DNA of 64,000 bases from the NCBI GenBank assembly GCA_963665845.2, contig OY762492.1, forward strand, positions 3,584,001 through 3,648,000. Direction: 5' to 3'. The stretch's first letter is position 1. Each line of letters starts with the position of its first letter. Below the pieces are notes generated by a model. The model saw only the letters and a program-made list of their open reading frames with translations, searched no databases and was not told the DNA's origin. The position numbers were made by a program, and so were the translations under genes. Source of the DNA: Candidatus Poribacteria bacterium (GTDB lineage: Bacteria > Poribacteria > WGA-4E > GCA-2687025). Shown here piece after piece: positions 17,006-30,310 of the stretch.

Positions 17006-20000
17006 ATGCAGACCCCCAACGGCAGCGATCAAGCCGTCCAAGCGGCTCTCGATAAACTGAATGAGAAGAGCTCTCAACAAACGGACGGCAAGTGGCTGGA
17101 AGAAATCGCCGTAAAAGCAGGACCGCATATCCGAGACTGGGACGTTTCGGAATGCTACTACTGGGGAGATTGGCCGGATCGAGAAAAACATTTTCCCGGC
17201 GTCAAACAGGTAGACATCGGCATTGACGTCGTCGCGGTAAGCGGCAGCGGCGAGCATATCGCCATCCAATGCAAGGCGCGCCAATTGGACGAACAAGGCG
17301 CCGGCGCTTCCGTATCAAAAGACGAAATGGCGAAGTTTATCAGCGCGTCGGCGCATTCGTTTTGGGCGGAGCGGTGGCTCGTCACAAACGGCAGCGTCCC
17401 GCAAAGCCCGCAGCTCAAATCCCTCCTGAACATGCAAGAGAAGCGCACCACATGGATCAACATCGCTTACGATCTGCAGCTCCAGCAGAGACCGGCAGAC
17501 GAGGACGCATGCCCCCATTGCGAACCGAACCCTGACGGCGAATTCCGCCAACAGACCAAAAACTGCATGCAGCGGGAAGCGGTCGAAAACAGCGTCCGCA
17601 TTCTAAAAGAGCATGAGCAGTCCAACAGCGGCGGACTGCCGATTGGTCAAGCGCGCGGCAGGATCATCCTCCCATGCGGAACCGGCAAAACGCGCATCTC
17701 TCTGCGCATCGTAGAGCAGCTGGCGGCGCAGGGCGAACTGGCGGTCATCCTTTGCCCCTCCATCGCTCTCGTCGCGCAGATACGGCGCGAATACCTGCAG
17801 CATGCGAACCTCCCAATGAGAGCGTTGGCGGTATGTTCCGATCAAACGGCGGGATACGATCCGAAAAAAGAGGACAGCGTCATCGCAAACGAAGACCCGA
17901 CCATCGACCGAAGCAACGTCAGCGCCTCCGAAGTGAAAGGGAAAGTGACGACGAAGCCGATGGAGATCGCCGAATGGATAACGGCGTCCGACAGCGAAAA
18001 CGCCGTCAACGTCATCTTCGGAACCTACCAGAGCGGACATCGCATCGCCGAGGCGCTGCGCCAAACCGAAACGAAAGCGGCGGTTCTCATCGCGGACGAA
18101 GCGCATCGAACCGCCGGACTAAAACGCAAACGCAGCAAGAGCAAGACCGCGTCCGAAGCGGAAAAGCGGATGCGCGACTTCACCCTGTGCCATGACAACG
18201 ACGCATTCCCGGCGACATACCGCGTCTATCAAACGGCGACGCCGCGCGTCTACAACACCAGCAAAGGCGCCGACCGAAACGCCGACTATATCGTCCGCTC
18301 CATGGACGACGAACGGGTGTTCGGGGTGGAACTGTACCGCAAAAGCTATGTCGAGGCGGTCAAAAACGAATGGCTGTCCGACTACCGAATCATCGCGCTG
18401 GCGATCAACGACCCGGACGCTTACGAAGAAGCGAACACTCTGGCAAAAAACACGAAAAGCAAAGGACGGCGCAAACTCAGCTCGGCAGACTACATGCGCG
18501 GACTCGCCTTCGCCCTGGCGATGGGCGGCGCCGCCCAAGCCGCAGGCGACGACGGCATCAAAATCGAATCATGCATCGCGTTCATGAACACGGTCGACAA
18601 ATCAAAAAACATGGCGCAAGACCTGCAAAGCAAAGCGGTCAAGCAATGGGTTCAAAAATGGCTCCATGAAAACAGCGCCAACGGAAAACGGGTCTCCGAC
18701 TACCGACTCGAACACCTGGACGCCACCAGCAACGTCACCGAACGAGACCACGCCAAATTCAAACTGGCGACCGCAAGCGAAGAGAAACCGCATGGGATCG
18801 TCAATGTCGGCATCTTCGGCGAAGGAACCGACTCCCCCTCCCTGAACGCCGTAGCGTTCCTAGAGCCGCGCAAAAGCCCCATCGATGTGATTCAAGCCGT
18901 CGGGCGCGCCATGCGAACGGCGCCCGGCAAACAGTTCGGCTACATCGTCTGCCCCGTCGTCATACCGCCCAACGCCGATCCTGAACAGTGGCTCAGCGCC
19001 AGCAATATGACGGAGGGATGGCAGGAGCTGGGGCAGATACTGCTCGCGCTGCGGGCGCATGACCAGCGCATCGAAGAAAAGCTGGCGGACCTGATGCTTC
19101 TATACATACCGCCGGCGCCAGAGGTTCAGCGCACATTGGTCGCCATCGCCATGCCTGAAAGCAAGCGCATTCAGTACCGAATACATGAAGGTAAACCGGG
19201 AGAAGCGGAGCAGGCGGTCAAGCGAGTCCTGGACGGAAAAAGCGCCATGTCGGACGAGTTCAGCCGCATTGAAAAGGAGTCTTCGAAGGAGCCTTCTGAC
19301 GCGATCGGGAGCGTCAAAGAGGAGCCGCAGCAGGAGCGGAAACCTGTTGAGCTGACCGCCATTATCGCCGGCAAGACGAACAGCGGCGGCGCGCCCGAAA
19401 TGCGGCTCGCCTCCATTCAAAGAGACAAGCCGAAATCGGACGGAACGCCAGGGAAAGTCAATATCGAGAAGTCGAAGACAAAAGCGAAAAACATGATCAA
19501 CAAAAGCGAAGGCGTCCGTACCCAGGCGCGCAAACCGAATCCGAAGCCCGCGAAACGGCGAACGAAAGAAGAGATCGCCGAAGACTCCGCCCAGCGGCTG
19601 CTGGAGCTCAGCGGCATGGGCGAATACGGCAGAGCCATCTGTATGAACCTGCTGACGAAATCGGGACTCAGAAGAAACCGCATCGAGAGAGACCTGAACA
19701 TCTTGGAAAAAAGCGTCAGCGAAGCGGCGTTCGAACTCCAAAGCGACGGACTGAACGAAATACTGGACAAGCATTTCGGCTTGGACAGATTGAAAAAGAC
19801 GCCCGGCAAAAAAGCGGCGGACGGCTGCACCATAACCTCCCTGCTCATGATGAACGCCGCCATGCTCCATCAGCGCATCAGCAACGGCGGATGGCTCTCC
19901 CAAATCAGCCCGTTGAGCGAGGTCAAACACGACACAAGGGTCGTCCAAAGAATATGCCGAGAATGGGAACGCATCATGCGCCATGACTTCCGACCCGTCC

Positions 20001-22027
20001 TGGAACCGGCGCTGGAAACGATCTACGCCATCGAAGAAACCGGCAAAACGGCAGGGCTGGAACGCGCCCTCCGACACCTCGCCGCCGAAGCGGAGCGCAT
20101 CGCCGAAACCTACGCCGACATGGGAGCCGACCATGCAGGTCCCCTCTTCAACCGCGTCATGGGCAACCAGACCAGCGACGGCGCCTTCTTCACGCGGCCG
20201 GCGGCGGCATCCATCGCCGCCCGACTCACCCTGGACGCATGCGGAGACGCGGACTGGACAGACGCAAACGTGTGGAGAGAACACAAAACGGTCGACCTGG
20301 CATGCGGAAGCGGAACGCTCCTGACCGCCATGCTGACCGACATGAAACGGCGCGCCCAAGAGCAAGGCGCCAGAGAAGCGCTGATCGCCAACCTGCAAAA
20401 AATAGCGGTCGAGGAAACGATCAAGGGGCTGGACATCAACCCCGTATCGCTGCAACTGGCGGCGGCGCAGCTCACCGCGGGGAACCAGAACATACGATAC
20501 CGACAGATGGGGCTGCATCAGATGCCCTACGGACCGCAAGACGAAAACAGCGAACGGGTGTCGGCGGGGACGCTGGAATTGCTGTCGCAGAAGGCGATCC
20601 TGCCGCGCCAAGGAGAGCTGGACATACCGGACGAGCTGATCGAGTCGCAAACGGTGTGGGATCAGCATGAGGACGCCGAGCTGGAAGACGCCGTGGACGC
20701 CGCGAAAAACTGCCGCATCGTCATCATGAATCCGCCGTTCACGAACCGAGCGAATATGGGGCAAAAGTTTCCGAAGGAGACTCAACAGAAACTGCGCGCG
20801 CAAACTGACCGGCTGGAGAAAAAACTGATATTCAACGATTCTGAAATGGAACGTTTTGTCGATAAGAATTCCATCGCCCCTCTGTTCGTCGCTTTGGCAG
20901 ATTGCTGCTTGAATTCGGACGCGGCTGTGTTGTCCATGATACATCCGACAATAGCCTTGACGAATCCGTCGGGATTGAATGAACGACTGATTCTTGCTCA
21001 ACGCTACCATATTCACACCGTGGTTACCTGCCATCAGCCGGGACAGGTGAACATGAGTCAGAATACTGGAATCAATGAGAGCATCATCATCGCAACGCGG
21101 CATGAAGGTGCCGCCCCTTCTACAAGGTTCATCAATCTAGACAGAATGCCGCTTCAAGAAAGCGATGTAGACGATCTGCATCGCTGTCTGCTTGAATGCA
21201 AGGAAGGCGAAATCGGCAACGGATGGGGCGCGGCGTCCTACTGGAATGCAGACCGCATAAAAGCGGGCGACTGGACGCCTGCGATATGGAGGTCGCCTGA
21301 ATTGGCGGAGGCGGCTCATACATTCGCCAATCTTACTGGCATGGAAACGATCGAAAGCACACCCGGCCTATCGCCTGTGGAGACAGGCCGGGTGTTGCGC
21401 GGATCTTTCGAGAGCGCAATGCCCGACGAAGATGGCAGTTTTCTGATACTGAAATCGAAAAGCGCCGACGCTCAAACGCGGATTCAAAGTCAGCCTGACG
21501 AGCATTATATTTCGAAGAAACGCAGCGCCGCCGACACTAAAAAATTGTTGAATAAAGCGGGACATCTACTGATGACTGCAGGTCAAAATACATCAACTGG
21601 CCGTCTCACAGCGATCGCAAATGACAAGAGTTACGTGGGCAACGGCTGGATGCCGGTAACAGGATTGTCGGCGAAAGAAGCGAAAGCGCTAGCCGTGTTC
21701 ATTAACTCAACGCCAGGTCGACTGCAGCTGATGCGTAACCCTGGTCGTCTGCTGATATTTCCTACCTACAGCGTCGCGGAAGCCGGTAAGATCCGCATCC
21801 CCGACATCCAAGACGCGCGCGTCTGCGGCGTCTTAGCGGACTGCTGGGAAGCGACGCAAGCGATGGAGGTTCCTCAGTTCCGCGACGGTGAATGCGATGT
21901 TCGCGTTTTATGGGATGAGGCGGTCGCTTCGGCTCTGGGCTGGGATGCCGCCGAGTTGTCCCGCCTCCGCCGCCTTCTTCACAAGGAGCCGCATGTCCGC
22001 GGCCTCGGCTATAACCAATACGCCTGA
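17006..22027 (+). CDS. Type ISP-like single-chain restriction-modification enzyme (Mrr nuclease, SF2 helicase, N6-adenine methyltransferase, TRD)
   Basis: GIDVVA...IAIQCK (Mrr); PCGTGKT, DEAH, TATPR, QAVGRAMR (helicase); GAFFT, DLACGSG, NPPF (MTase). Confidence 0.9.
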   Translation: MQTPNGSDQAVQAALDKLNEKSSQQTDGKWLEEIAVKAGPHIRDWDVSECYYWGDWPDREKHFPGVKQVDIGIDVVAVSGSGEHIAIQCKARQLDEQGAGASVSKDEMAKFISASAHSFWAERWLVTNGSVPQSPQLKSLLNMQEKRTTWINIAYDLQLQQRPADEDACPHCEPNPDGEFRQQTKNCMQREAVENSVRILKEHEQSNSGGLPIGQARGRIILPCGTGKTRISLRIVEQLAAQGELAVILCPSIALVAQIRREYLQHANLPMRALAVCSDQTAGYDPKKEDSVIANEDPTIDRSNVSASEVKGKVTTKPMEIAEWITASDSENAVNVIFGTYQSGHRIAEALRQTETKAAVLIADEAHRTAGLKRKRSKSKTASEAEKRMRDFTLCHDNDAFPATYRVYQTATPRVYNTSKGADRNADYIVRSMDDERVFGVELYRKSYVEAVKNEWLSDYRIIALAINDPDAYEEANTLAKNTKSKGRRKLSSADYMRGLAFALAMGGAAQAAGDDGIKIESCIAFMNTVDKSKNMAQDLQSKAVKQWVQKWLHENSANGKRVSDYRLEHLDATSNVTERDHAKFKLATASEEKPHGIVNVGIFGEGTDSPSLNAVAFLEPRKSPIDVIQAVGRAMRTAPGKQFGYIVCPVVIPPNADPEQWLSASNMTEGWQELGQILLALRAHDQRIEEKLADLMLLYIPPAPEVQRTLVAIAMPESKRIQYRIHEGKPGEAEQAVKRVLDGKSAMSDEFSRIEKESSKEPSDAIGSVKEEPQQERKPVELTAIIAGKTNSGGAPEMRLASIQRDKPKSDGTPGKVNIEKSKTKAKNMINKSEGVRTQARKPNPKPAKRRTKEEIAEDSAQRLLELSGMGEYGRAICMNLLTKSGLRRNRIERDLNILEKSVSEAAFELQSDGLNEILDKHFGLDRLKKTPGKKAADGCTITSLLMMNAAMLHQRISNGGWLSQISPLSEVKHDTRVVQRICREWERIMRHDFRPVLEPALETIYAIEETGKTAGLERALRHLAAEAERIAETYADMGADHAGPLFNRVMGNQTSDGAFFTRPAAASIAARLTLDACGDADWTDANVWREHKTVDLACGSGTLLTAMLTDMKRRAQEQGAREALIANLQKIAVEETIKGLDINPVSLQLAAAQLTAGNQNIRYRQMGLHQMPYGPQDENSERVSAGTLELLSQKAILPRQGELDIPDELIESQTVWDQHEDAELEDAVDAAKNCRIVIMNPPFTNRANMGQKFPKETQQKLRAQTDRLEKKLIFNDSEMERFVDKNSIAPLFVALADCCLNSDAAVLSMIHPTIALTNPSGLNERLILAQRYHIHTVVTCHQPGQVNMSQNTGINESIIIATRHEGAAPSTRFINLDRMPLQESDVDDLHRCLLECKEGEIGNGWGAASYWNADRIKAGDWTPAIWRSPELAEAAHTFANLTGMETIESTPGLSPVETGRVLRGSFESAMPDEDGSFLILKSKSADAQTRIQSQPDEHYISKKRSAADTKKLLNKAGHLLMTAGQNTSTGRLTAIANDKSYVGNGWMPVTGLSAKEAKALAVFINSTPGRLQLMRNPGRLLIFPTYSVAEAGKIRIPDIQDARVCGVLADCWEATQAMEVPQFRDGECDVRVLWDEAVASALGWDAAELSRLRRLLHKEPHVRGLGYNQYA

Positions 22028-22057: not shown

Positions 22058-22885
22058 GACTCCCCCCTTGAAAAGGGGGGCTGGGGAGGTTTTCCGCGTC
22101 CGGCCCCGGCTACGTCATTCCCGCGCCCCCTCCTCGTCATTCCCGCGTAAGCGGGAATCTTAGGCGCCGCAAGGCGCCGTCCGCGTCCGGCCCCGGTACG
22201 TCATTCCCGCGTAAGCGGGAATCCAGAGTCATGCCCGACCCCGCCCGCGTCCGGCAATCACCGCCATCCCGCCCGCCGTTGTCTGAACTAGGATTGCCAA
22301 GATTGAAAAGATTGCCAAGAAATTCCCGAAATCGCTATCTTGGCAATCTTAATAATCCTTCCATCCTAGTTCAAAACCCTGACGCCGCGCGCCGCGCTGT
22401 CATGCGCGCGTCCGGCAATCACCGCCATCCCGCCCGCCGTCATTCCCGCGCCCCCAATGCGTCATTCCCGCGTAAGCGGGAATCCAGAGTCATGCCCGAC
22501 CCCGCCCGCGTCCGTCCGCCTCCTCCTCTGTCTGAACTAGGATTGCCAAGATTGAAAAGATTGCCAAGAAATTCCCGAAATCGCTGTCTTGGCAATCTTA
22601 ATAATCCTTCCATCCTAGTTCAAAACCCTGACGCCGCGCGCCGCGCTGTCATGCGCGCGTCCGGCAATCACCGCCATCCTACCCGCCGTCATTCCCGCGC
22701 CCCCAATGCGTCATTCCCGCGTAAGCGGGAATCCAGAGTATGCGCCGCCCCCGCCCGCGTCCGGACGCCATGCCTGCATCCCCAGCCCGTCATTCCCGCG
22801 TAAGCGGGAATCCAGAGGCATGCCCGACCCCGCCCGCGTCCGTCCGGACGCCATGCCCGCGCCCCCTACCAGTCGTCATTCCCGA
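22058..22885. repeat. Composite repeat cluster: REP-like palindromes and a 249-bp duplication carrying a ~90-bp palindromic element
   Basis: Many GTCATTCCCGCG(TAAGCGGGAATC) copies; TGAACTAGGAT...ATCCTAGTTCA at ~22284 and ~22533. Confidence 0.88.
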
Positions 22886-23930
22886 CAGAATAAACCTCGT
22901 CAAGAAAAAACGCGGGATAAAAAAGCGGCTTCTTGCCCTCGTTTAACGCCTTCACCGCCTGCTCTTTACTGCTGCAGTTTTCAACGGTAAACGGCAAAAC
23001 CTGCTTATTTTCACTACCCTCCCATGGTGAATAGTGGGATAGATTGCCATAATTATAGTAGTCAGATGCGGTGTCGTCCATGTTGTAGCTGTAATTTTTC
23101 ACGAAAAAATACTCTTCAACGCCTTGTACATACCTGCTACGGAAAGACGCATTCGCCTTGCGTTTCGGCTCATGCGCTATCAATATGCAATTTCCTTGCT
23201 CATCAGCGTATTTTTCTGTGGAATCATCTCCTTTAACTATATCGATGATGGAATCTGTGTGTAGGCTTGAAGCGTCTATCGATCCCGACATAGAAGGCGC
23301 CCACCTCTTAACGGAATAATTGTACATGCGATTGAATACGTCAAAGATGGTCTTGAAATCATAGCAGCATCGGTGTATTATATTATGCTGATAGCTATAT
23401 CGCTGCGTGTATGTTTTAATATCATCCAAACGTGATAAAAACCATTCAAACGTATTGGGGAAATATATTAGCTCCCGTTCCTGCACATTTACAGGGTCTT
23501 TACGCATCATTGCAAAACGTAAGAATTCCTGTTCCTGCACATATACTGCTACTGCTGGGTCTTTATATTCTATTTTAAGTCTTAGTTTCACCAATTCGCC
23601 AGCATAGAGCTTGGACAAGTCCCTGCGACTTGTTTCTAGTAGTTTAGCATAAATGTCATATAATTTATGACCGCCTGTTATTTTTGTGGTGTCTATAAAC
23701 TCTAACCCCTTTAGGATTTGTTCGAATGCATTATGCACATCAAAGATTATGCATGCGTCGTCAATGCGTCCATGAGTTAAAGTTAACCCTTGAACTATCG
23801 GTTCGGATTTGATCTTAAAGAGTATTTTCATATTGTTAGCAAACCCCGTTTCAGCTTTATTGTTGAAGCTGAGTGCCATGTCGTGCAACTTCACAGGATC
23901 GCATGTTTTCACAGGTTTTATCGGCGCCAT
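22866..23930 (-). CDS. Low-GC HEPN-like domain protein
   Basis: 354-aa ORF in a visibly AT-rich segment; AFEQILKG, GHKLYDIY and RYSYQH (RxxxxH) motifs. Confidence 0.55.
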   Translation of the reverse strand: MAPIKPVKTCDPVKLHDMALSFNNKAETGFANNMKILFKIKSEPIVQGLTLTHGRIDDACIIFDVHNAFEQILKGLEFIDTTKITGGHKLYDIYAKLLETSRRDLSKLYAGELVKLRLKIEYKDPAVAVYVQEQEFLRFAMMRKDPVNVQERELIYFPNTFEWFLSRLDDIKTYTQRYSYQHNIIHRCCYDFKTIFDVFNRMYNYSVKRWAPSMSGSIDASSLHTDSIIDIVKGDDSTEKYADEQGNCILIAHEPKRKANASFRSRYVQGVEEYFFVKNYSYNMDDTASDYYNYGNLSHYSPWEGSENKQVLPFTVENCSSKEQAVKALNEGKKPLFYPAFFLDEVYSVGNDDW

Positions 23931-24158
23931 ATCGTAGCCCTTTCAGGGTGAGCGGTCAATGCGCTGGCGACAAGCTTGCCCTGCCACCATGTCGTTAATG
24001 AGTATACGCTGTTCGGCGCGAAAAGGTTACCGCTTTTTTCAACGGCGACGGGCGCAGCAATTTCCCTGTCGCGCCCGCCGCTTGACAAACCCCTCCATCG
24101 TGTATCATCCTTTAACAGCCCATCATAAGGGCGTCGTCGGCATCGATTGGAGCAAAGC

Positions 24159-24656
24159 ATGGTTAAACGAATCGAACTTGAACGCGATCGGTTTTTAGCG
24201 CATCTAACATCGAAGAGTCTTGCTGCGGGCGGCGAATCGGTTGAATGCTGCCTTAAAGCGGTTGAGGTCAATCCTGAAAACGAAGGCGCGCATTATCGCT
24301 TAGCCGTTGCGTATGCGCGAGCCGGCGACCTTGAAGCCGCCCTGGAAAGCAGCGCTCAAGCGATCCGAATCCAGCCCGACTTCGCTGAAGCATATCTTCT
24401 GCGCGGGCTTGTGTATGAGCAGAAAGGCGAGCTGGAGCTTGCCCATGAGGACATCGCTACTGCTGTCCTCCTGAAGCCTGAACTTTACGATGAGCGGTTT
24501 GAACCGATCATGGAAAGCATCCGCGAAGAGGAAGCGGAGTGGGACGAACTCACCAGCCGGCCGGAAGCGAAGGCGCTGTTTGAGAAATGGGAAGCGGAAG
24601 CGATGGAGGAGTATCGAGCGGGGAAAACGAAGCCTTTGGATCCTGAGGATCTATGA
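24159..24656 (+). CDS. TPR-repeat protein with an antitoxin-like C-terminus
   Basis: TPRs (NPENEGAHYRLA, QPDFAEAYLLRG); tail EAEWDEL...EAMEEYRAGKTKPLDPEDL; ATGA overlap with the toxin. Confidence 0.8.
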   Translation: MVKRIELERDRFLAHLTSKSLAAGGESVECCLKAVEVNPENEGAHYRLAVAYARAGDLEAALESSAQAIRIQPDFAEAYLLRGLVYEQKGELELAHEDIATAVLLKPELYDERFEPIMESIREEEAEWDELTSRPEAKALFEKWEAEAMEEYRAGKTKPLDPEDL

Positions 24657-24925
24657 TGCGCTCGCGCATATGTTCTCGGTTTCGAAAGCAATTCAGGCGT
24701 CTTCCAAAGGAAGTCCGGCAACGGGCAAGGGAGGCATACCGACTATTTAAAACGAGCGAACGCTACCGCAACTTACGATTTAAAAAATTACAGGGTAGCA
24801 GCCGCAAATATTCGGTTCGTTTTTATAAAAAATACCGCGCTCTCGCCAGAAAAACGGATGAGGGCGACCTCGTATGGTATTCGATTGGATCGCATGCGAC
24901 ATACGACAAGGATATAAAAAGATAA
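24653..24925 (+). CDS. RelE/ParE-superfamily toxin
   Basis: Basic 90 aa: FRKQFRRLP.EVR..A..AY.LF, LRFKKL, YSVR...YRAL, WYSIGSHATYD. Confidence 0.85.
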   Translation: MMRSRICSRFRKQFRRLPKEVRQRAREAYRLFKTSERYRNLRFKKLQGSSRKYSVRFYKKYRALARKTDEGDLVWYSIGSHATYDKDIKR

Positions 24926-25021
24926 AAAGCTGTAGCGCCGCATGGTTTCCGCGCATCGAAAGTAGGCGATTGCGAGCGGGATCGTGTAGACTATGAGCGT
25001 CGGCAGCGATGGGAGGCGGAC

Positions 25022-25567
25022 ATGAGCGAACGAAGCGGAACGGAACGAAAACAGCATCGAGACCCTTGGAACGAACTGCGCGCCGCTCTCATCCAGGCGC
25101 AGGCGCAGCTGGCGCAGTTGGACGTTGAGCCTGAGCGGCGGGAGAACTGGACGCCTCTTCTCGATGGCGCATTGGAGGCGGTCAACAGGTTCAAGGCGCG
25201 TCAAAAAGAGATACCCGGTCTCCGCCGCGCCGCGGAGCGTCTGGCGGTGGAGGAATGCCGCGATGTCCGGACAGCTCTTGGATACGCGCTGAACGAGGCG
25301 CTGGAGCGTTTAGGCGATCTGGCAGTATTTCGGCGCGACATGCGCCGTCATGCCCTTTCGATAGAGGCGTCGGGCGAAGAAAAAAGCGGCTTTGCGGCGG
25401 CGCTGCTCTGTGTCAGTCGGTCGCTGGAGGCGTTGAAGATTGAGGCGATCAACGATGTTCTTCTGAAAATTCGGGCGGAGAATTCGATCCATGCCCTCCG
25501 CTATCTGCAGACTCGTATCAAAACCGGCGGGCGGACTTTCACTCGGGATGAAATGAATGAGCGTTGA
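25022..25567 (+). CDS. Extended VapB-like antitoxin, array unit 1
   Basis: 181 aa, helical; C-terminal GGRTFTRDEMNER overlaps the PIN start; GGAGG RBS. Confidence 0.75.
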   Translation: MSERSGTERKQHRDPWNELRAALIQAQAQLAQLDVEPERRENWTPLLDGALEAVNRFKARQKEIPGLRRAAERLAVEECRDVRTALGYALNEALERLGDLAVFRRDMRRHALSIEASGEEKSGFAAALLCVSRSLEALKIEAINDVLLKIRAENSIHALRYLQTRIKTGGRTFTRDEMNER

Positions 25568-26020
25568 GTATTTTTTGGATACGAATGTAATCATATACGT
25601 GTACGATGAGAAAGAAAATCAAAACAAAAGACAAAAGCGGAGGAATTAGTTATAACCGCGCTCACGCATCAGACGGGATGCGTCAGCTATCAGGTTGTGT
25701 TGGAGACGCTGCATGTCATGAAAACGAAACTAGGAACCGACGATAGGGATGCGAAGACCGCGCTGATTGAGGTTTTGATTCCGCTATGGAGAATCAACCC
25801 TGTCATGCAAAACCAGCAAACCGAACAGGTATTCATGGATTCGCAAATTTATGTGCGCGCTCTGGATATTTTCACCAGTCATGGCGTCCGTAACTACTAC
25901 GACTGCGTCGTCGCCGTAAACGCCATGGACGCCGGATGCGCGACGCTTTATACGGAAGACCGCCACCTGCTGCGCGTCCAGCGGATCGAAGATATGGACA
26001 TCGTCAACCCGTTCACCTAA
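25557..26020 (+). pseudogene. PIN/VapC toxin, unit 1, frameshifted (-1) near 25626
   Basis: MSVEYFLDTNVIIY stops at 25649; the -1 frame continues ...SYQVVLE...YDCVVA...LYTED...NPF. Confidence 0.85.
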
Positions 26021-26103
26021 AATAGGGGCTGAACTCAAAACAGGGAGCGGCGCAACTTGACAGCGCGTCATAAGGGCGTTGTCGGCAGCGATGGGAGGCG
26101 GAC

Positions 26104-26649
26104 ATGACCGAACGAAGCGGAACGGAACGAAAACAGCATCGAGACCCTTGGAACGAGCTGCGCGCCGCTCTCATCCAGGCGCAGGCGCAGCTGGCGCAAT
26201 TGGACGCGGCGCCTGAGCGTCGGGAGAACTGGACGCCTCTTCTCGATGGCGCGTTGGAGGCGGTCGACAGGTTCAAGGCGCGTCAAAAAGAGATACCCGG
26301 TCTCCGCCGCGCCGCGGAGCGTCTGGCGGTGGAGGAATGCCGCGACGCTCGGATGGCGTTCGGACGCGCCCTGAGAGAGTCGCTGGATCAATTGAGAACC
26401 CTGACCAAATTTAGAGGCGAAATGCGCCGTCACGCGCTCGCTTTAGAATCGTCGGGCGGAGAAAAAAACGGCTTTGCGGCGGCGCTGCTCCGAGTCAGTC
26501 GGTCGCTGGAAGCGGCGCCGATGGAAGACGCCGACAAGGCTCTTAATAAACTTCTGGGGGAGAATTCTGTCCAAATCGCCCGCTATCTGGGGACCCGAAT
26601 CAAAACGGGCGGACGTACCTTCACACGGGATGAAATGAATGAGCGTTGA
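26104..26649 (+). CDS. Extended VapB-like antitoxin, array unit 2
   Basis: Paralog of 25022..25567 with the same C-terminal tail. Confidence 0.75.
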   Translation: MTERSGTERKQHRDPWNELRAALIQAQAQLAQLDAAPERRENWTPLLDGALEAVDRFKARQKEIPGLRRAAERLAVEECRDARMAFGRALRESLDQLRTLTKFRGEMRRHALALESSGGEKNGFAAALLRVSRSLEAAPMEDADKALNKLLGENSVQIARYLGTRIKTGGRTFTRDEMNER

Positions 26650-27081
26650 CCATTTTTTGGACTCCAACATCGTCATTTACTACTACGACGATCAAAGTCC
26701 AAAAAAGAAAGCAAAAGCGAGGCGCATGGTGGACAGCGCGCTCAATAATCAAAACGGCTGCATCAGCTTCCAGGTCGTTCAAGAAACAATGTATGTCATC
26801 AGGAAAAGCTGCGGGTGGACGATAAAGACGCTGAAGCCATGCTGAATGACATACTGCTGCGACTTTGGCAAGCGAATCCTGTGCGGGAGACCGACCCGAC
26901 GCCGGAAATGTACAAGCGCGCTTTCGATCTCCATAAACGGGGCGGAATCGCCAATTTCTACGATTGCGTCATCGCCGTAAACGCTCTCGACGCCGGATGC
27001 GCCGCGCTCTACACCGAAGACGCGGGTCTGCTCCACGCCCAGCGGGTTGAGGATGTGGACATCGTCAACCCGTTCAACTAA
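26639..27081 (+). pseudogene. PIN/VapC toxin, unit 2, frameshifted (-1) at 26804-26807
   Basis: FLDSNIVIY...SFQVVQE in one frame; FYDCVIA...LYTED...NPF in the -1 frame. Confidence 0.85.
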
Positions 27082-27161
27082 AATTAGGCTGACTCAAACG
27101 GGGAGCGGCGCCATTTGACAGCGCGTCATAAGGGCGTCGTCGGCAGCAATAGGAGGCGGAC

Positions 27162-27698
27162 ATGACCGAACGAAGCGGAACGGAACGAAAACAGCATCGA
27201 GACCCTTGGAACGAACTGCGCGCCGCTCTCATCCAGGCGCAGGCGCAGCTGGACGCCGAGCATGAATGGCGGGAGGGCTGGGCGGACCTCCTCAATGGCG
27301 CATTGGAGGCGGTTGATAGGTTCACGGCGCGTCAAAAAGAGATACGCCGCCTCAACCCCATCGCTGAGCGTCTGGCGGTGGAGGAGTGCCGCGATGCCCG
27401 GCTAGAGCTTGGATACGCCCTGAACGAAGCGCTGGATCGATTGAGGTCCTTGACCAAATTTCGGAGCGAAATGCGCCGTCATGCGCTCGCTCTAGAATCG
27501 TCGGGCGGAGAAAAAAGCGGCTTTGCGGCGGCGCTGCTCCGCGTCAGTCGGTCGCTGGAAGCGGCGAAGATCGAAGACGCCTACAAGGTTGTTGATGAAA
27601 TTCAGAGGGAGAATTCGCTCCAGAGCCTTCGGTATCTGGAGACCCAAATCAAAACGGGCGGACGTACCTTCACACGGGATGAAATGAATGAGCGTTGA
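27162..27698 (+). CDS. Extended VapB-like antitoxin, array unit 3
   Basis: Paralog, 178 aa, same tail. Confidence 0.75.
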   Translation: MTERSGTERKQHRDPWNELRAALIQAQAQLDAEHEWREGWADLLNGALEAVDRFTARQKEIRRLNPIAERLAVEECRDARLELGYALNEALDRLRSLTKFRSEMRRHALALESSGGEKSGFAAALLRVSRSLEAAKIEDAYKVVDEIQRENSLQSLRYLETQIKTGGRTFTRDEMNER

Positions 27699-28130
27699 CC
27701 ATTTTTTGGACTCCAACATCGTCCTCTACTACTATGACGATCAAAGTCCAAAAAAGAAAGAAACAGCGAGGCGCATGGTGGACAGCGCGCTCAATAATCA
27801 AAACGGCTGCGTCAGCTATCAGATCGTTCAAGAAACAATGTATGTCGTCCGGAAAAGCTGCGGGTGGACGATACGACCGCCGACTTCATGCTGAATAACA
27901 TACTGCTGCGGCTTTGGCAAGCGAATCCCGTGTGGGAAACCGACCCGACGCCGGAAATGTACAAGCGCGCTTTTGATCTCCACAAACGGCGCGGAATCGC
28001 CAATTTCTACGATTGCGTCATCGCCGTAAACGCTCTCGACGCCGGATGCGCCGCGCTCTATACCGAAGACGCGGGTCTGCTCCATGCCCAGCGTATCGAG
28101 GATGTGGACGTCGTCAACCCGTTCACTTAA
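27688..28130 (+). pseudogene. PIN/VapC toxin, unit 3, frameshifted (-1) at 27853-27856
   Basis: Same split position as unit 2. Confidence 0.85.
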
Positions 28131-28151
28131 AATAGAGGCTGAACAAAGCGG

Positions 28152-28251
28152 CATAAGGGCGTTGTCGGCAGCGATAGGAGGCGGACATGACCGAACGAAG
28201 CGGAACGGAACGAAAACAGCATCGAGACCCTTGGAACGAACTGCGCGCCGC
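28152..28251 (+). pseudogene. Truncated fourth array unit (leader and first ~21 codons of the antitoxin)
   Basis: CATAAGGGCGTTGTCGGCAGCGATAGGAGGCGGACATGACCGAACGAAGC...GAACTGCGCGCCGC, then similarity ends. Confidence 0.85.
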
Positions 28252-28477
28252 GCAAGACGCCTGAACGCCCGCGCCGTCCGCGCCCTCATCGCCTGCCCTG
28301 TGAAACGGGGTCATTCCGGCTCCCGTCCTTTAAACCCCCTACCCCCTTTTCAAGGGGAATCGAACGCGCCGCGCCGCGAATATCCCCGTATGAGCGTACT
28401 GCCGTCAAAAGCGGGCGGTTGCAATTAAACCGCATCCGACATACCATGTAGGCGTATGAAAATGCGAAAGGCGAATT

Positions 28478-30310
28478 ATGAGCTCCAATATCCATTACGA
28501 CGCCCCCGATTCCTTTTTTGCAATGGACGAATCCGCCCTCGGCGAGCTGGACGAAGAGCGAACCTACCACCCGCTCTGCCGCGCCGACGAGTTTGAAGAA
28601 GGCGAAGGCAAGCCGTTCCATGTGGACGGGTTCCATATCGCCGTGTTTCGATATGCCGACAAATACTACGCTGTCGACAACCGCTGCCCGCATATGGGTT
28701 ATCCGATGTCGGAAGGCAGCGTGCGGGACGGCGTTCTGATCTGCCACTGGCACCACTGGGAATTCGACCTGCGCACCGGCGGCTGCTTCCTCTCCTTCGG
28801 CGATGACCTCAAAGCGTTTCCGGTCAAGGTGGAAGACGGCATCGTCTCGGTCGGGCTGTCGAGCGGAGAAAAAGAAGCGGCGCGCCAACGGCTCATCCAC
28901 CGCGGAAAACGGCAGCTGGTTCAGGGTCTCAAAGACCGCAGCCCGTTTCTGATTGCGAAAGCGGTTGCCGCTCTGCGCGACGCCGGCGCCTCCGCCAAGG
29001 AGATCATCCATCAGGGTCTCTACTACGGCGCCAACAAAACGAACGACGGCTGGTCATCCGGCGTCGCCATACTCGCCATCGCCGCGAATATGTGGGACGA
29101 GATCGACCCTGCCGACCAGAACCTGTTCTTGGTGCATGGCTTGACGCAGACAAGCCGCCGCACAACGGGAAGCTCGCGCCGCCCCCGCTCCCCCTTCCCC
29201 AGAACCGAAAACGAGCATGAAAAAAAGCAGCTGTTCCGCTGGTTCCGCTACTTCATCCGCAAGCGCGATGTCGGCGCGGCGGAACGCATTTTAATCACCA
29301 TCTTTGACCGCGGATACTCCAAAGAGGAGATCGCGCATTTTGTGTATTCCGCGGCGACCGACTACTACTTCACAGGCGACGGGCATGCGCTTGACTTTGC
29401 GAACAAATGCTTCGAATCGCTGCATTATCTGGACTGGGCGGGCGCGCAGGAGATTCTGCGCCCCATTGTGGTTGATCTCGCCCGGCGGACGCGGCATGAG
29501 GAGACCTCGCGCTGGGCGGAAGCCGTCCCTGTTATGAGAAACGTCTTCGGGCGCCTGGACGAGATTTGGAAGGAAAATCAAGCGAACCGCGCCGATCTGG
29601 ACATACCCGCCTTCGCGCAGCGGATGCTCCAGGACGACTTCCGCGACATCGTCGGCGAGGTGGAAGAAAAGCTGCGCGAGGGCGTTGAGCCGACCGACCT
29701 GTGCCGCGCGATGACCTACGCGGGCGCCGTTCGCATCGTCCGTTTTCACCTGAAAAACGAAGGCGACTGGCATGATGTCGCCAACCTGTACTCCTACGCC
29801 CATGCGCTTTACCGCGCGTTCCATGACGCCCCAAGCAAAGAGCTGCTGCGCGGCGTCTTCCACGGGGCGGTCTATTTGACGATGCTGCGCTGGTTGAACA
29901 TGCCGTCCGCGCGCGTCCCGAAACAAGGGCAGCGGCTGGATGAAACCTTCGAAAACCCGAAGCAGATGCTGGACCGTCTGCAGGAGTTTGCCGATTTTCA
30001 AAAGGTGCTGGACGCCGAAATTCTGGTGAGCCAATACCTGGACGAGGGGCTGGATGCCGGTGCCTTGAAACGCGCCCTGGCGCACATCACTCTGCGGGAG
30101 GACGCTGAACTTCACATGTTCCAGGTTCTGGAGGTGGCGTTCCGGCATTACGATTTCGCGGAAACCTTTGAAGAAAAGCGGACGCATCTGCTGGCGGCGA
30201 CGCGCTATATCGCGGCTCAAAAGGCGATGAAGAACATTCTCTGGTCAACCGAAAACGCGGAGCGGCTGCAGCGGGGCGAACTGTTGAGCGAGCGGAACGA
30301 CGATGAATAA
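28478..30310 (+). CDS. Rieske 2Fe-2S domain fused to a large helical domain
   Basis: CPHMGYP...CHWHHWEFDL Rieske motif; TTGCAA-17-TACCAT upstream at 28419. Confidence 0.85.
   Translation: MSSNIHYDAPDSFFAMDESALGELDEERTYHPLCRADEFEEGEGKPFHVDGFHIAVFRYADKYYAVDNRCPHMGYPMSEGSVRDGVLICHWHHWEFDLRTGGCFLSFGDDLKAFPVKVEDGIVSVGLSSGEKEAARQRLIHRGKRQLVQGLKDRSPFLIAKAVAALRDAGASAKEIIHQGLYYGANKTNDGWSSGVAILAIAANMWDEIDPADQNLFLVHGLTQTSRRTTGSSRRPRSPFPRTENEHEKKQLFRWFRYFIRKRDVGAAERILITIFDRGYSKEEIAHFVYSAATDYYFTGDGHALDFANKCFESLHYLDWAGAQEILRPIVVDLARRTRHEETSRWAEAVPVMRNVFGRLDEIWKENQANRADLDIPAFAQRMLQDDFRDIVGEVEEKLREGVEPTDLCRAMTYAGAVRIVRFHLKNEGDWHDVANLYSYAHALYRAFHDAPSKELLRGVFHGAVYLTMLRWLNMPSARVPKQGQRLDETFENPKQMLDRLQEFADFQKVLDAEILVSQYLDEGLDAGALKRALAHITLREDAELHMFQVLEVAFRHYDFAETFEEKRTHLLAATRYIAAQKAMKNILWSTENAERLQRGELLSERNDDE

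What the first reader, a model, noticed from the sequence alone, without database searches (positions are those of the whole stretch)
24990..28251. Tandem array of VapBC-like modules whose antitoxins carry an unrecognised ~150-aa helical domain
Seen: three ~1.05-kb units plus the stub of a fourth. Each encodes a 178-181 aa helical protein ending in the invariant GGRTFTRDEMNER, overlapping the ATG of a PIN gene. Known: short (~70-90 aa) VapB-type antitoxins of this PIN subfamily end in a similar (F/W)TRDE..ER tail and start with a small DNA-binding domain. Inference: here that domain is replaced by a large diversified helical bundle that could act as a sensor, for example of phage proteins, releasing the RNase. 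The array lies in an island with R-M and HEPN-like genes, so it may be an undescribed multi-specificity abortive-infection system.
Basis: partly seen in the sequence, partly recalled or inferred. Interest (0 to 1): 0.82.

Follow-up and report, generated by a model that had tools for sequence, protein, structure and literature searches.

The report
Bundle-capped antitoxins beside frameshifted PIN toxins
Three tandem toxin-antitoxin gene pairs in a genome whose same-genus relative is a Poribacteria bacterium keep intact antitoxin genes, in which an unrecognised, predicted four-helix bundle replaces the usual short, likely DNA-binding front end, but all three toxin genes are frameshifted, so this array is likely a recently disarmed store of spare antitoxins rather than a working phage-sensing defence.

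Summary
The array is real: three intact 178-181 aa genes ending GGRTFTRDEMNER, each overlapping a PIN gene by 11 nt, plus a 25-aa stub. Only residues 150-181 match the ordinary ~74-aa antitoxin of this PIN subfamily (tail present in 80 of 80 loci). That tail is predicted to plug the active site of an intact paralogous PIN. Residues 15-149 form a predicted four-helix bundle with no family or significant fold match. It occurs in 1 of 176 genomes of the phylum, and its long forms follow TPR arrays shared with this genus's ParE-type antitoxins. All three PIN genes are frameshifted; contigs from three runs of one study confirm this, and a 95%-identical intact copy exists in another assembly. The bundle shows dN/dS below 1 in all 21 pairs. 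Verdict: a new, lineage-restricted VapBC variant built by domain swapping, here with recently inactivated toxins. The multi-specificity abortive-infection reading is not supported for this array. A sensor role stays open for the three intact modules elsewhere in the genome.

The parts
24082..24108 (+). Promoter-like site (TTGACA, 15 nt, TATCAT). It heads a leader cassette shared with three other modules of the genome; a possible start of a transcript across the cluster (inferred)
   Evidence: not reported by the consensus scan, which needs a 16-18 nt spacer
24159..24656 (+). TPR-fused antitoxin-like gene (165 aa from ATG). It shares its N-terminus, TPRs and W-x-E-L junction with the long TPR forms of the bundle antitoxins
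   Evidence: TPR_1 E 1.1e-13; 49% identity over 146 aa to P0011
24653..24925 (+). Intact ParE-like toxin gene (90 aa)
   Evidence: PF24732 E 1.1e-10
25022..25567 (+). Antitoxin 1 (181 aa): predicted four-helix bundle (residues 15-149) plus VapB-type tail (150-181)
25557..26020 (+). PIN/VapC pseudogene 1: frameshift in the A-rich stretch 25611-25630, stop after 30 codons; acidic catalytic residues retained
   Evidence: contigs of runs X1-X3 match 25379-26110 with no difference or gap
26104..26649 (+). Antitoxin 2 (181 aa)
26639..27081 (+). PIN/VapC pseudogene 2: frameshift at the A-run 26804-26807, stop after 68 codons; 139 of 147 residues identical to intact P0083 from another assembly
   Evidence: contigs of X1-X3 match 26764-26919 exactly
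27162..27698 (+). Antitoxin 3 (178 aa)
27688..28130 (+). PIN/VapC pseudogene 3: frameshift at the A-run 27853-27856 (same position as in copy 2), stop after 68 codons
   Evidence: contigs of X1-X3 match 27781-27930 exactly
28187..28264 (+). Stub of a fourth antitoxin (25 aa), followed by a genome-wide repeat sequence
17006..22027 (+). Context: single-chain restriction-modification enzyme (1673 aa)
   Evidence: PADLOC REase_MTase_IIG E 2.4e-94; Pfam ResIII, Mrr_cat_2, Eco57I

Best explanation
These are tandemly amplified VapBC-type toxin-antitoxin modules whose three PIN toxin genes are frameshifted and whose intact antitoxins likely act as spare neutralisers: the conserved 32-residue tail is predicted to plug the PIN active site, while the predicted four-helix bundle likely serves only as a folded carrier that stabilises the tail in place of the lost, likely DNA-binding domain. 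Shown: gene layout, tail homology, frameshifts, TPR-bundle-tail long forms and mosaic copies. Predicted: tail helix 150-168 packs on the toxin, and Arg175 of the R-DEMNE-R motif contacts catalytic Glu49 and Asp109. Inferred history: a TPR-antitoxin gene of the ParE type had everything after its W-x-E-L junction replaced by bundle plus VapB tail; loss of the TPRs gave the 178-181 aa form; it spread with its leader into three restriction-modification or TA clusters; redundant toxin copies were then lost recently. The orphan antitoxins would still neutralise the three intact PINs of this genome and incoming relatives.
For: Profile comparison with the short antitoxins aligns only residues 150-181 (probability 97.3, E 1.8e-11). 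The tail precedes the PIN in 80 of 80 loci, the best 80 of 510 confirmed. Complex model of antitoxin 1 with the intact, non-cognate paralogous PIN: score 0.75, best of 3 controls 0.00; 116 of 157 solved and 2 of 215 mismatched pairs reached the mark; runs share at least 97% of contacts; partner pLDDT at least 85. The interface is residues 151-180 plus only 80, 83, 84 and 87 of the bundle. Arg insertion by an R...R motif is the known VapB mechanism (PMC5389673, passages), and a neutralising tail works on an inert carrier such as SUMO (PMC10440598, passages). All 7 full antitoxin genes in the genome are open, but only 3 of 7 partner PINs are. The frameshifts are confirmed in 3 runs, and two paralogues keep the longer A-run in a near-identical context. 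The broken PINs keep D8, E49, D109 and D128, and copies 2 and 3 show dN/dS 0.17-0.39, so the loss is recent. TPR swap: P0010 is 81% identical over 125 aa to a ParE-linked TPR antitoxin and then continues into the bundle. All 4 long homologues carry TPRs.
Against: No experiment shows neutralisation or that the bundle is passive. The bundle is conserved (dN/dS below 1), which fits any function. The complex score may come from likeness to solved VapBC complexes, and close cousins of a true partner also pass. VapB antitoxins are usually specific to their own toxin (PMC7354431, passages), so cross-neutralisation by copy 1, whose PIN is only 53-56% identical to the others, is not assured. The three runs come from one study, and one may be the source of the assembly. 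The count of 4 of 7 broken toxins is small, and copies 2 and 3 are not independent. The order of fusion events is inferred, not tested with a rooted tree. No RNA data.
Confidence: 0.6

Rival explanations
1. Sensor-gated defence TA: the bundle (and the TPR array in long forms) binds a phage or stress cue and releases the PIN RNase, as proposed for Panacea antitoxins and shown for CapRel. The window's array would be a dead copy of a system that works at the intact loci.
For: The modules sit beside restriction-modification and SNF2/HKD genes at two loci. The same TPR front end is fused to neutralising tails of two unrelated toxin classes. TPR number varies widely (proteins of 165-668 aa). Four bundle residues touch the toxin in the model. 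Accessory domains on antitoxins are hypothesised to be sensors (PMC10440598, passages).
Against: No working effector in this array. No excess of amino-acid change in the bundle (dN/dS 0.13-0.58; most variable stretch 0.27-0.78). The window's proteins lack the TPRs. Nearness to R-M genes is common for TA modules of sponge symbionts (PMC5649159, passages).
Confidence: 0.2
2. The bundle replaces the lost domain functionally, as an oligomerisation or DNA-binding module that autoregulates the shared promoter and leader.
For: A conserved leader precedes the modules. VapB proteins normally dimerise and repress their own promoter (PMC5389673, passages).
Against: The bundle is about charge-neutral (K+R 21-24, D+E 21-24) and the model is a plain up-down bundle with no strand. 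The same leader also precedes a TPR antitoxin with no bundle.
Confidence: 0.1
3. The frameshifts are reversible switches (slippage, phase variation or programmed frameshifting) that allow low or conditional toxin output.
For: All three breaks lie in A-runs, two at the same position, and the downstream halves stay conserved (dN/dS 0.28 after the break between copies 2 and 3).
Against: The runs are only four A's long with no canonical slippery heptamer (read from the sequence; the criteria are recalled). No indel variant was listed at these sites in the contigs (contigs drop rare variants). Close relatives are simply intact.
Confidence: 0.07
4. The frameshifts are sequencing or assembly errors and the toxins are intact.
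For: Homopolymer deletions are the typical long-read error, and the library type of the runs is not on record.
Against: Contigs from three runs match all three sites with no gaps. The same assembly reads the longer run correctly in two near-identical paralogues.
Confidence: 0.03

Closest known systems
Short (~74 aa) antitoxin plus PIN (PF01850) modules of the same PIN subfamily; partner likely ribbon-helix-helix (only sub-threshold DUF6364, ParD_like and VapB_antitoxin hits)
   Same: PIN toxin 35-46% identical, same gene order and overlap, homologous last 32 residues. Also present in 6 genomes of another genus of the phylum.
   Different: The first ~42 residues are replaced by a ~135-residue bundle, with or without TPRs. 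This genome holds no short form: its 7 matches cover the tail only.
VapBC1 of Caulobacter crescentus and VapBC of Shigella flexneri (PMC5389673, passages)
   Same: C-terminal pseudo-palindromic R...R motif (here RD-EMN-ER) whose Arg is predicted to enter the acidic active site.
   Different: Those have an N-terminal AbrB DNA-binding domain; here there is a helical bundle, and the toxins in this array are broken.
Multidomain PanA (Panacea) antitoxins and CapRel (PMC10440598; bioRxiv 2023.12.08.570793; passages)
   Same: A folded accessory domain joined to a short neutralising segment and swapped between toxin families.
   Different: No Panacea or other Pfam hit. Sensing is shown for CapRel, hypothesised for Panacea, untested here.
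PcrIIC1 (PDB 8WMM), a Cas9-associated PIN protein
   Same: Only solved structure matching the toxin profile at E 0.001 or better (E 6.9e-14).
   Different: PcrIIC1 is an accessory factor of type II-C loci (PMC12669027, passages). Here the PIN is paired with an antitoxin; cas9 was not searched for in this genome.
Orphan antitoxins and degraded TA modules (PMC7354431, passages)
   Same: Intact antitoxin beside a lost toxin; proposed there as remnants or anti-addiction modules.
   Different: Here three lie in tandem, with an unusual antitoxin architecture and intact cognate-type toxins elsewhere in the genome.

Membership tests
VapBC type II TA | Antitoxin gene directly upstream of and overlapping a PIN gene | tested here: met
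   11-nt overlap in 3 of 3 units and at the four other copies in the genome
VapBC type II TA | PIN domain with acidic catalytic residues | tested here: met
   PF01850 E 1.7e-11 on the intact paralogue; D8, E49, D109, D128 kept in all three window copies
VapBC type II TA | Intact toxin reading frame | tested here: not met
   0 of 3 in the window; 3 of 7 in the genome
VapBC type II TA | C-terminal neutralising segment with an Arg motif that enters the active site | tested here: met
   Homology and complex model with Arg175 at Glu49 and Asp109; a prediction, possibly from likeness to solved complexes
Short-antitoxin modules of this PIN subfamily | N-terminal strand-helix-helix domain of the ~74-aa partner | tested here: not met
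   Profile alignment covers only the tail; the short-antitoxin profile matches only positions 41-74 in this genome; the model has no strand
VapBC type II TA | Any DNA-binding domain for autoregulation | tested here: inconclusive
   Fold searches gave only generic bundles; an unlisted fold is not excluded
VapBC type II TA | Toxicity and its rescue in cells; RNase activity | not testable with these tools
   Needs expression assays
Phage-sensing TA / abortive infection (CapRel-like) | Functional effector in the module | tested here: not met
   All three toxins frameshifted; met only at three other loci of the genome
Phage-sensing TA / abortive infection (CapRel-like) | Sensor region diversifying faster than neutral | tested here: inconclusive
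   Bundle dN/dS 0.13-0.58 in 21 of 21 pairs; pairwise averages on 7 recombining copies cannot exclude a few selected sites
Phage-sensing TA / abortive infection (CapRel-like) | Trigger binding and phage protection | not testable with these tools
   Needs phage challenge
HEPN (neighbour 22866-23930) | HEPN profile or fold match | tested here: inconclusive
   No profile hit in four libraries; model pLDDT 29

The most novel reading that the evidence does not exclude
One genus of Poribacteria has rebuilt its type II TA systems as a modular sensor kit: the usual front end of the antitoxin is dropped, and interchangeable TPR arrays and a new four-helix bundle are grafted onto the neutralising tails of two unrelated toxin classes (ParE-like and PIN), so that toxin release is gated by binding of a phage or host ligand. 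The window's array is a disarmed reservoir that feeds bundle variants to the live modules by gene conversion.
Probability: 0.2. Interest if true: 0.78.

Novelty: new variant of a known kind. Interest (0 to 1): 0.45.

Why it matters
It is a natural case of the 'neutralising tail on any carrier' model of antitoxin evolution, with the intermediates present in one genome and its close relatives: TPR-ParE antitoxin, TPR-bundle-tail, bundle-tail and orphan antitoxin. It adds an unrecognised domain and, by my searches, an undescribed TPR-fused antitoxin family of about a dozen copies per genome in this genus. The three intact modules give a small, direct test of whether accessory domains on antitoxins are sensors or just stabilisers. 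As a defence system the window's array itself is probably inactive.

Tried and rejected
Family scans of the bundle antitoxin: Pfam gave only a sub-threshold poxvirus B3R hit on the tail (E 0.0055); nothing in PADLOC, NCBIfam or PHROGs. A weak PADLOC type IV REase hit on the TPR-bundle junction of the 668-aa form (E 0.0011) was not followed. ESM Atlas: no usable hit twice; this shows neither absence nor novelty. Foldseek: no match at E 0.001 or better, best 0.043. VIA-align: best Z 11.8, rmsd 4.1, 149 aligned, a de novo maquette, within the range common for bundles. Pattern scans of metagenome and genome contigs with the antitoxin alignment confirmed none of 107 and 88 candidates. A bundle-only profile over all six-frame ORFs of the genome found only the 7 known copies, next best E 0.45 (the script then failed on a later step, redone). 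Three of the four weaker hits of the exhaustive search are repetitive: two were seen to be tandem-repeat junk, one (P0072) was not viewed. An Rx4-6H-like string in the bundle suggested HEPN (recalled motif), but no profile or fold hit backed it. No RNA holder listed. The promoter scan found 6 sites against 2.3 +/- 1.7 expected, three of them repeats at the PIN ends; not used. The 354-aa neighbour has no plasmid match. My first tail count, 65 of 80, missed cases through frame picking and a narrow pattern, and was redone as 80 of 80. One tail-only pair gave dN/dS 1.66 on very few sites and is not taken as selection. Literature searches for TPR-fused antitoxins returned 0, 0, 3 and 9 papers; none describes them by listing or passages. 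Subscription journals are not covered, and no supplements were read; the NetFlax tables could show whether its validated PIN D59 pairs are this subfamily.
Full report
Setting. The window is G000:C1:3584001-3648000 of a 3.98-Mb, 3-contig genome. A protein of its same-genus relative G001 is named Candidatus Poribacteria by its source, so I treat the organism as Poribacteria. Sponge-symbiont genomes are known to be enriched in R-M and TA genes (PMC5649159, passages).

Observation. The three units and the stub are as described. The upstream proteins are 181, 181 and 178 aa, end in GGRTFTRDEMNER and overlap the PIN start by 11 nt. The cluster follows a 1673-aa type IIG-like R-M gene, an unassigned 354-aa gene and a TPR-antitoxin/ParE-like pair. 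The 'HEPN-like' label for the 354-aa gene could not be confirmed.

The toxins are broken. The PIN frames stop after 30, 68 and 68 codons. I first suspected long-read homopolymer errors. However, contigs of three public runs (three samples, one study) match across all three breaks with no difference or gap, and two paralogues in the same assembly keep the longer A-run in a near-identical context. The loss is recent: the catalytic residues D8, E49, D109 and D128 are kept in all three, dN/dS among copies 2, 3 and the two intact close paralogues is 0.17-0.39, and an intact protein from another assembly matches copy 2 at 139 of 147 residues. Genome-wide there are 7 full antitoxin genes, all open. 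Their partner PINs are intact in 3, frameshifted in these 3, and replaced by an abundant repeat in 1.

The tail. In the best 80 of 510 confirmed loci of this PIN subfamily in other genomes, the upstream gene ends in the same tail in 80 of 80. In 75 of 80 my pattern found the KNITLSA-like first strand 73-84 residues from the end, and the other five look similar by eye. That this short partner is a ribbon-helix-helix protein is inferred from its pattern (recalled) and sub-threshold hits only. Profile comparison aligns just 32 columns, residues 150-181 of the long proteins (probability 97.3). The end of the tail, R175-DEMNE-R181, fits the pseudo-palindromic R...R motif by which VapB proteins insert Arg into the VapC active site (PMC5389673, passages). 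A complex model of antitoxin 1 with the intact paralogous PIN (L001:8917-9357; not its own partner) scored 0.75 against a best control of 0.00. The mark was reached by 116 of 157 solved complexes and 2 of 215 mismatched pairs, the runs agree in at least 97% of contacts, and partner pLDDT is at least 85. Arg175 touches Glu49 and Asp109, and only four bundle residues touch the toxin. The pass may reflect likeness to solved VapBC complexes.

The bundle. AlphaFold2 on a 14-row alignment gives an all-helical model (pLDDT 83.5). Fold searches find only generic four-helix bundles. The domain is very rare. It has 13 near-length hits among 7,999 scored candidates, 5 of them from this genome's contig; 4 longer hits among 7,993; 4 clusters at E 1e-30 or better among 1.84 billion representatives; and full-length matches in 1 of 176 genomes of the phylum, with three others matching the tail only. 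It is absent from the search of G001 (91% complete). Three of the 13, all 4 long hits and 3 of the 4 clusters carry TPRs in front of the bundle. Equal contig lengths in the tool tables suggest that the outside homologues share contigs with PIN genes; I could not fetch those contigs.

Origin. This genome has 12 genes with TPRs followed by a ParE-type antitoxin end, 8 of them directly before a ParE-like gene, one of which is split. G001 has 12 matches to that query, 11 reaching past the TPRs, and the 6 other genomes of the family have none at E 1e-10. G001 has three such pairs in tandem behind the homologous R-M gene. A profile of the C-terminal part matches 11 of 26 ordinary ParE-like partners from other genomes at E below 0.01 in a 30-sequence search. 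The TPR parts are interchangeable: P0010 is 81% identical over 125 aa to a ParE-linked TPR antitoxin and then runs into bundle and tail; P0011 is 49% identical over 146 aa to the window's TPR antitoxin up to the shared W-x-E-L junction; and the promoter-leader region is shared. The short forms look like TPR-less derivatives that keep the leader and the first few residues. This order of events is inferred; no rooted tree was made.

Is it a diversified sensor array? Bundle identity among six copies is 57-92%, against 42-90% for their PINs. Among the four closest modules the bundle is somewhat more divergent than the PIN in 4 of 6 pairs. dN/dS is 0.13-0.58 in 21 of 21 pairs, and 0.27-0.78 in the most variable stretch. 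Sliding identity shows patchwork exchange between copies (for example 99% between units 2 and b3 in one 100-nt window, 82% in another). This is conservation with recombination, not clear diversifying selection, though pairwise averages can hide a few selected sites. With no intact effector, this array cannot itself be the proposed abortive-infection system.

Mechanism, committed. Antitoxin and PIN are co-translated through the overlap. The tail helix and Arg motif bind and silence the RNase (predicted). The bundle likely stabilises the otherwise unstable tail, as SUMO did for Phd-C (PMC10440598, passages), and transcription is likely not autoregulated in the usual way (inferred). After tandem amplification the surplus toxins were lost, leaving orphan antitoxins that would guard against the remaining PINs (inferred; compare PMC7354431, passages, which also notes that VapB specificity is usually narrow). 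Confidence 0.6. Sensor rival 0.2, regulatory bundle 0.1, programmed or reversible frameshift 0.07, artefact 0.03.

Known relatives and novelty. It works like VapBC, but it fails two features of the family in this window: an intact toxin, and the short partner's N-terminal domain. The closest solved toxin is PcrIIC1 (8WMM, E 6.9e-14; described in PMC12669027, passages). Validated PIN-RHH pairs exist (PMC10440598), but I did not test whether they are this subfamily. Searches for TPR-fused antitoxins found no description (listings, plus passages of bioRxiv 2023.12.08.570793); subscription papers and supplements were not seen. Earlier scan notes had nothing on this sequence. Unchecked notes on other Poribacteria TPR fusions are leads only. 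Verdict: new variant of a known kind, interest 0.45.

Noticed in passing
window 24159-24925; G000:C1 at 317484, 1107485, 1238961, 1680506, 1692037, 1905434, 2348001, 2465365, 2774211, 2788765, 3471148; L112 11504-14242: Genus-restricted family of TPR-fused antitoxins in front of ParE-like toxins: 12 genes in this genome, about 11 in G001, none found at E 1e-10 in 6 other genomes of the family. Probably the more rewarding target than the window's array.
   Followed up: partly
L003 5642-8586 (G000:C1:3493641-3496585): A 668-aa TPR-bundle-tail protein followed by an intact PIN and a second PIN (176 aa) in which the first, third and fourth acidic positions appear replaced; a similar protein exists elsewhere (P0039). 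A possible pseudo-toxin partner.
   Followed up: no
L001 5321-18636 (G000:C1:1671320-1684635): Bundle-antitoxin/PIN modules inserted between and after type III R-M res and mod genes, followed by a TPR-antitoxin/ParE pair and an HKD-SNF2 gene, at the dapB site. In G001 the same site holds the single-chain R-M gene found in this window.
   Followed up: partly
window 22108-22884 and 28335-28357; genome-wide: Very abundant short palindromic repeats: one 12-mer occurs 861 times and one 15-mer 409 times on C1. One such insertion replaced the middle of a PIN gene at C1:1675951.
   Followed up: no
window 22866-23930, minus strand: Low-GC (about 41%) 354-aa ORF with no family, plasmid or usable fold match.
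   Followed up: partly
L001 8917-9360: The only solved structure matching this widespread PIN subfamily is the Cas9 accessory protein PcrIIC1, which hints that PcrIIC1 came from this TA toxin group.
   Followed up: no
window 28478-30310: 610-aa protein with an N-terminal Rieske domain and a long unassigned helical remainder.
   Followed up: no
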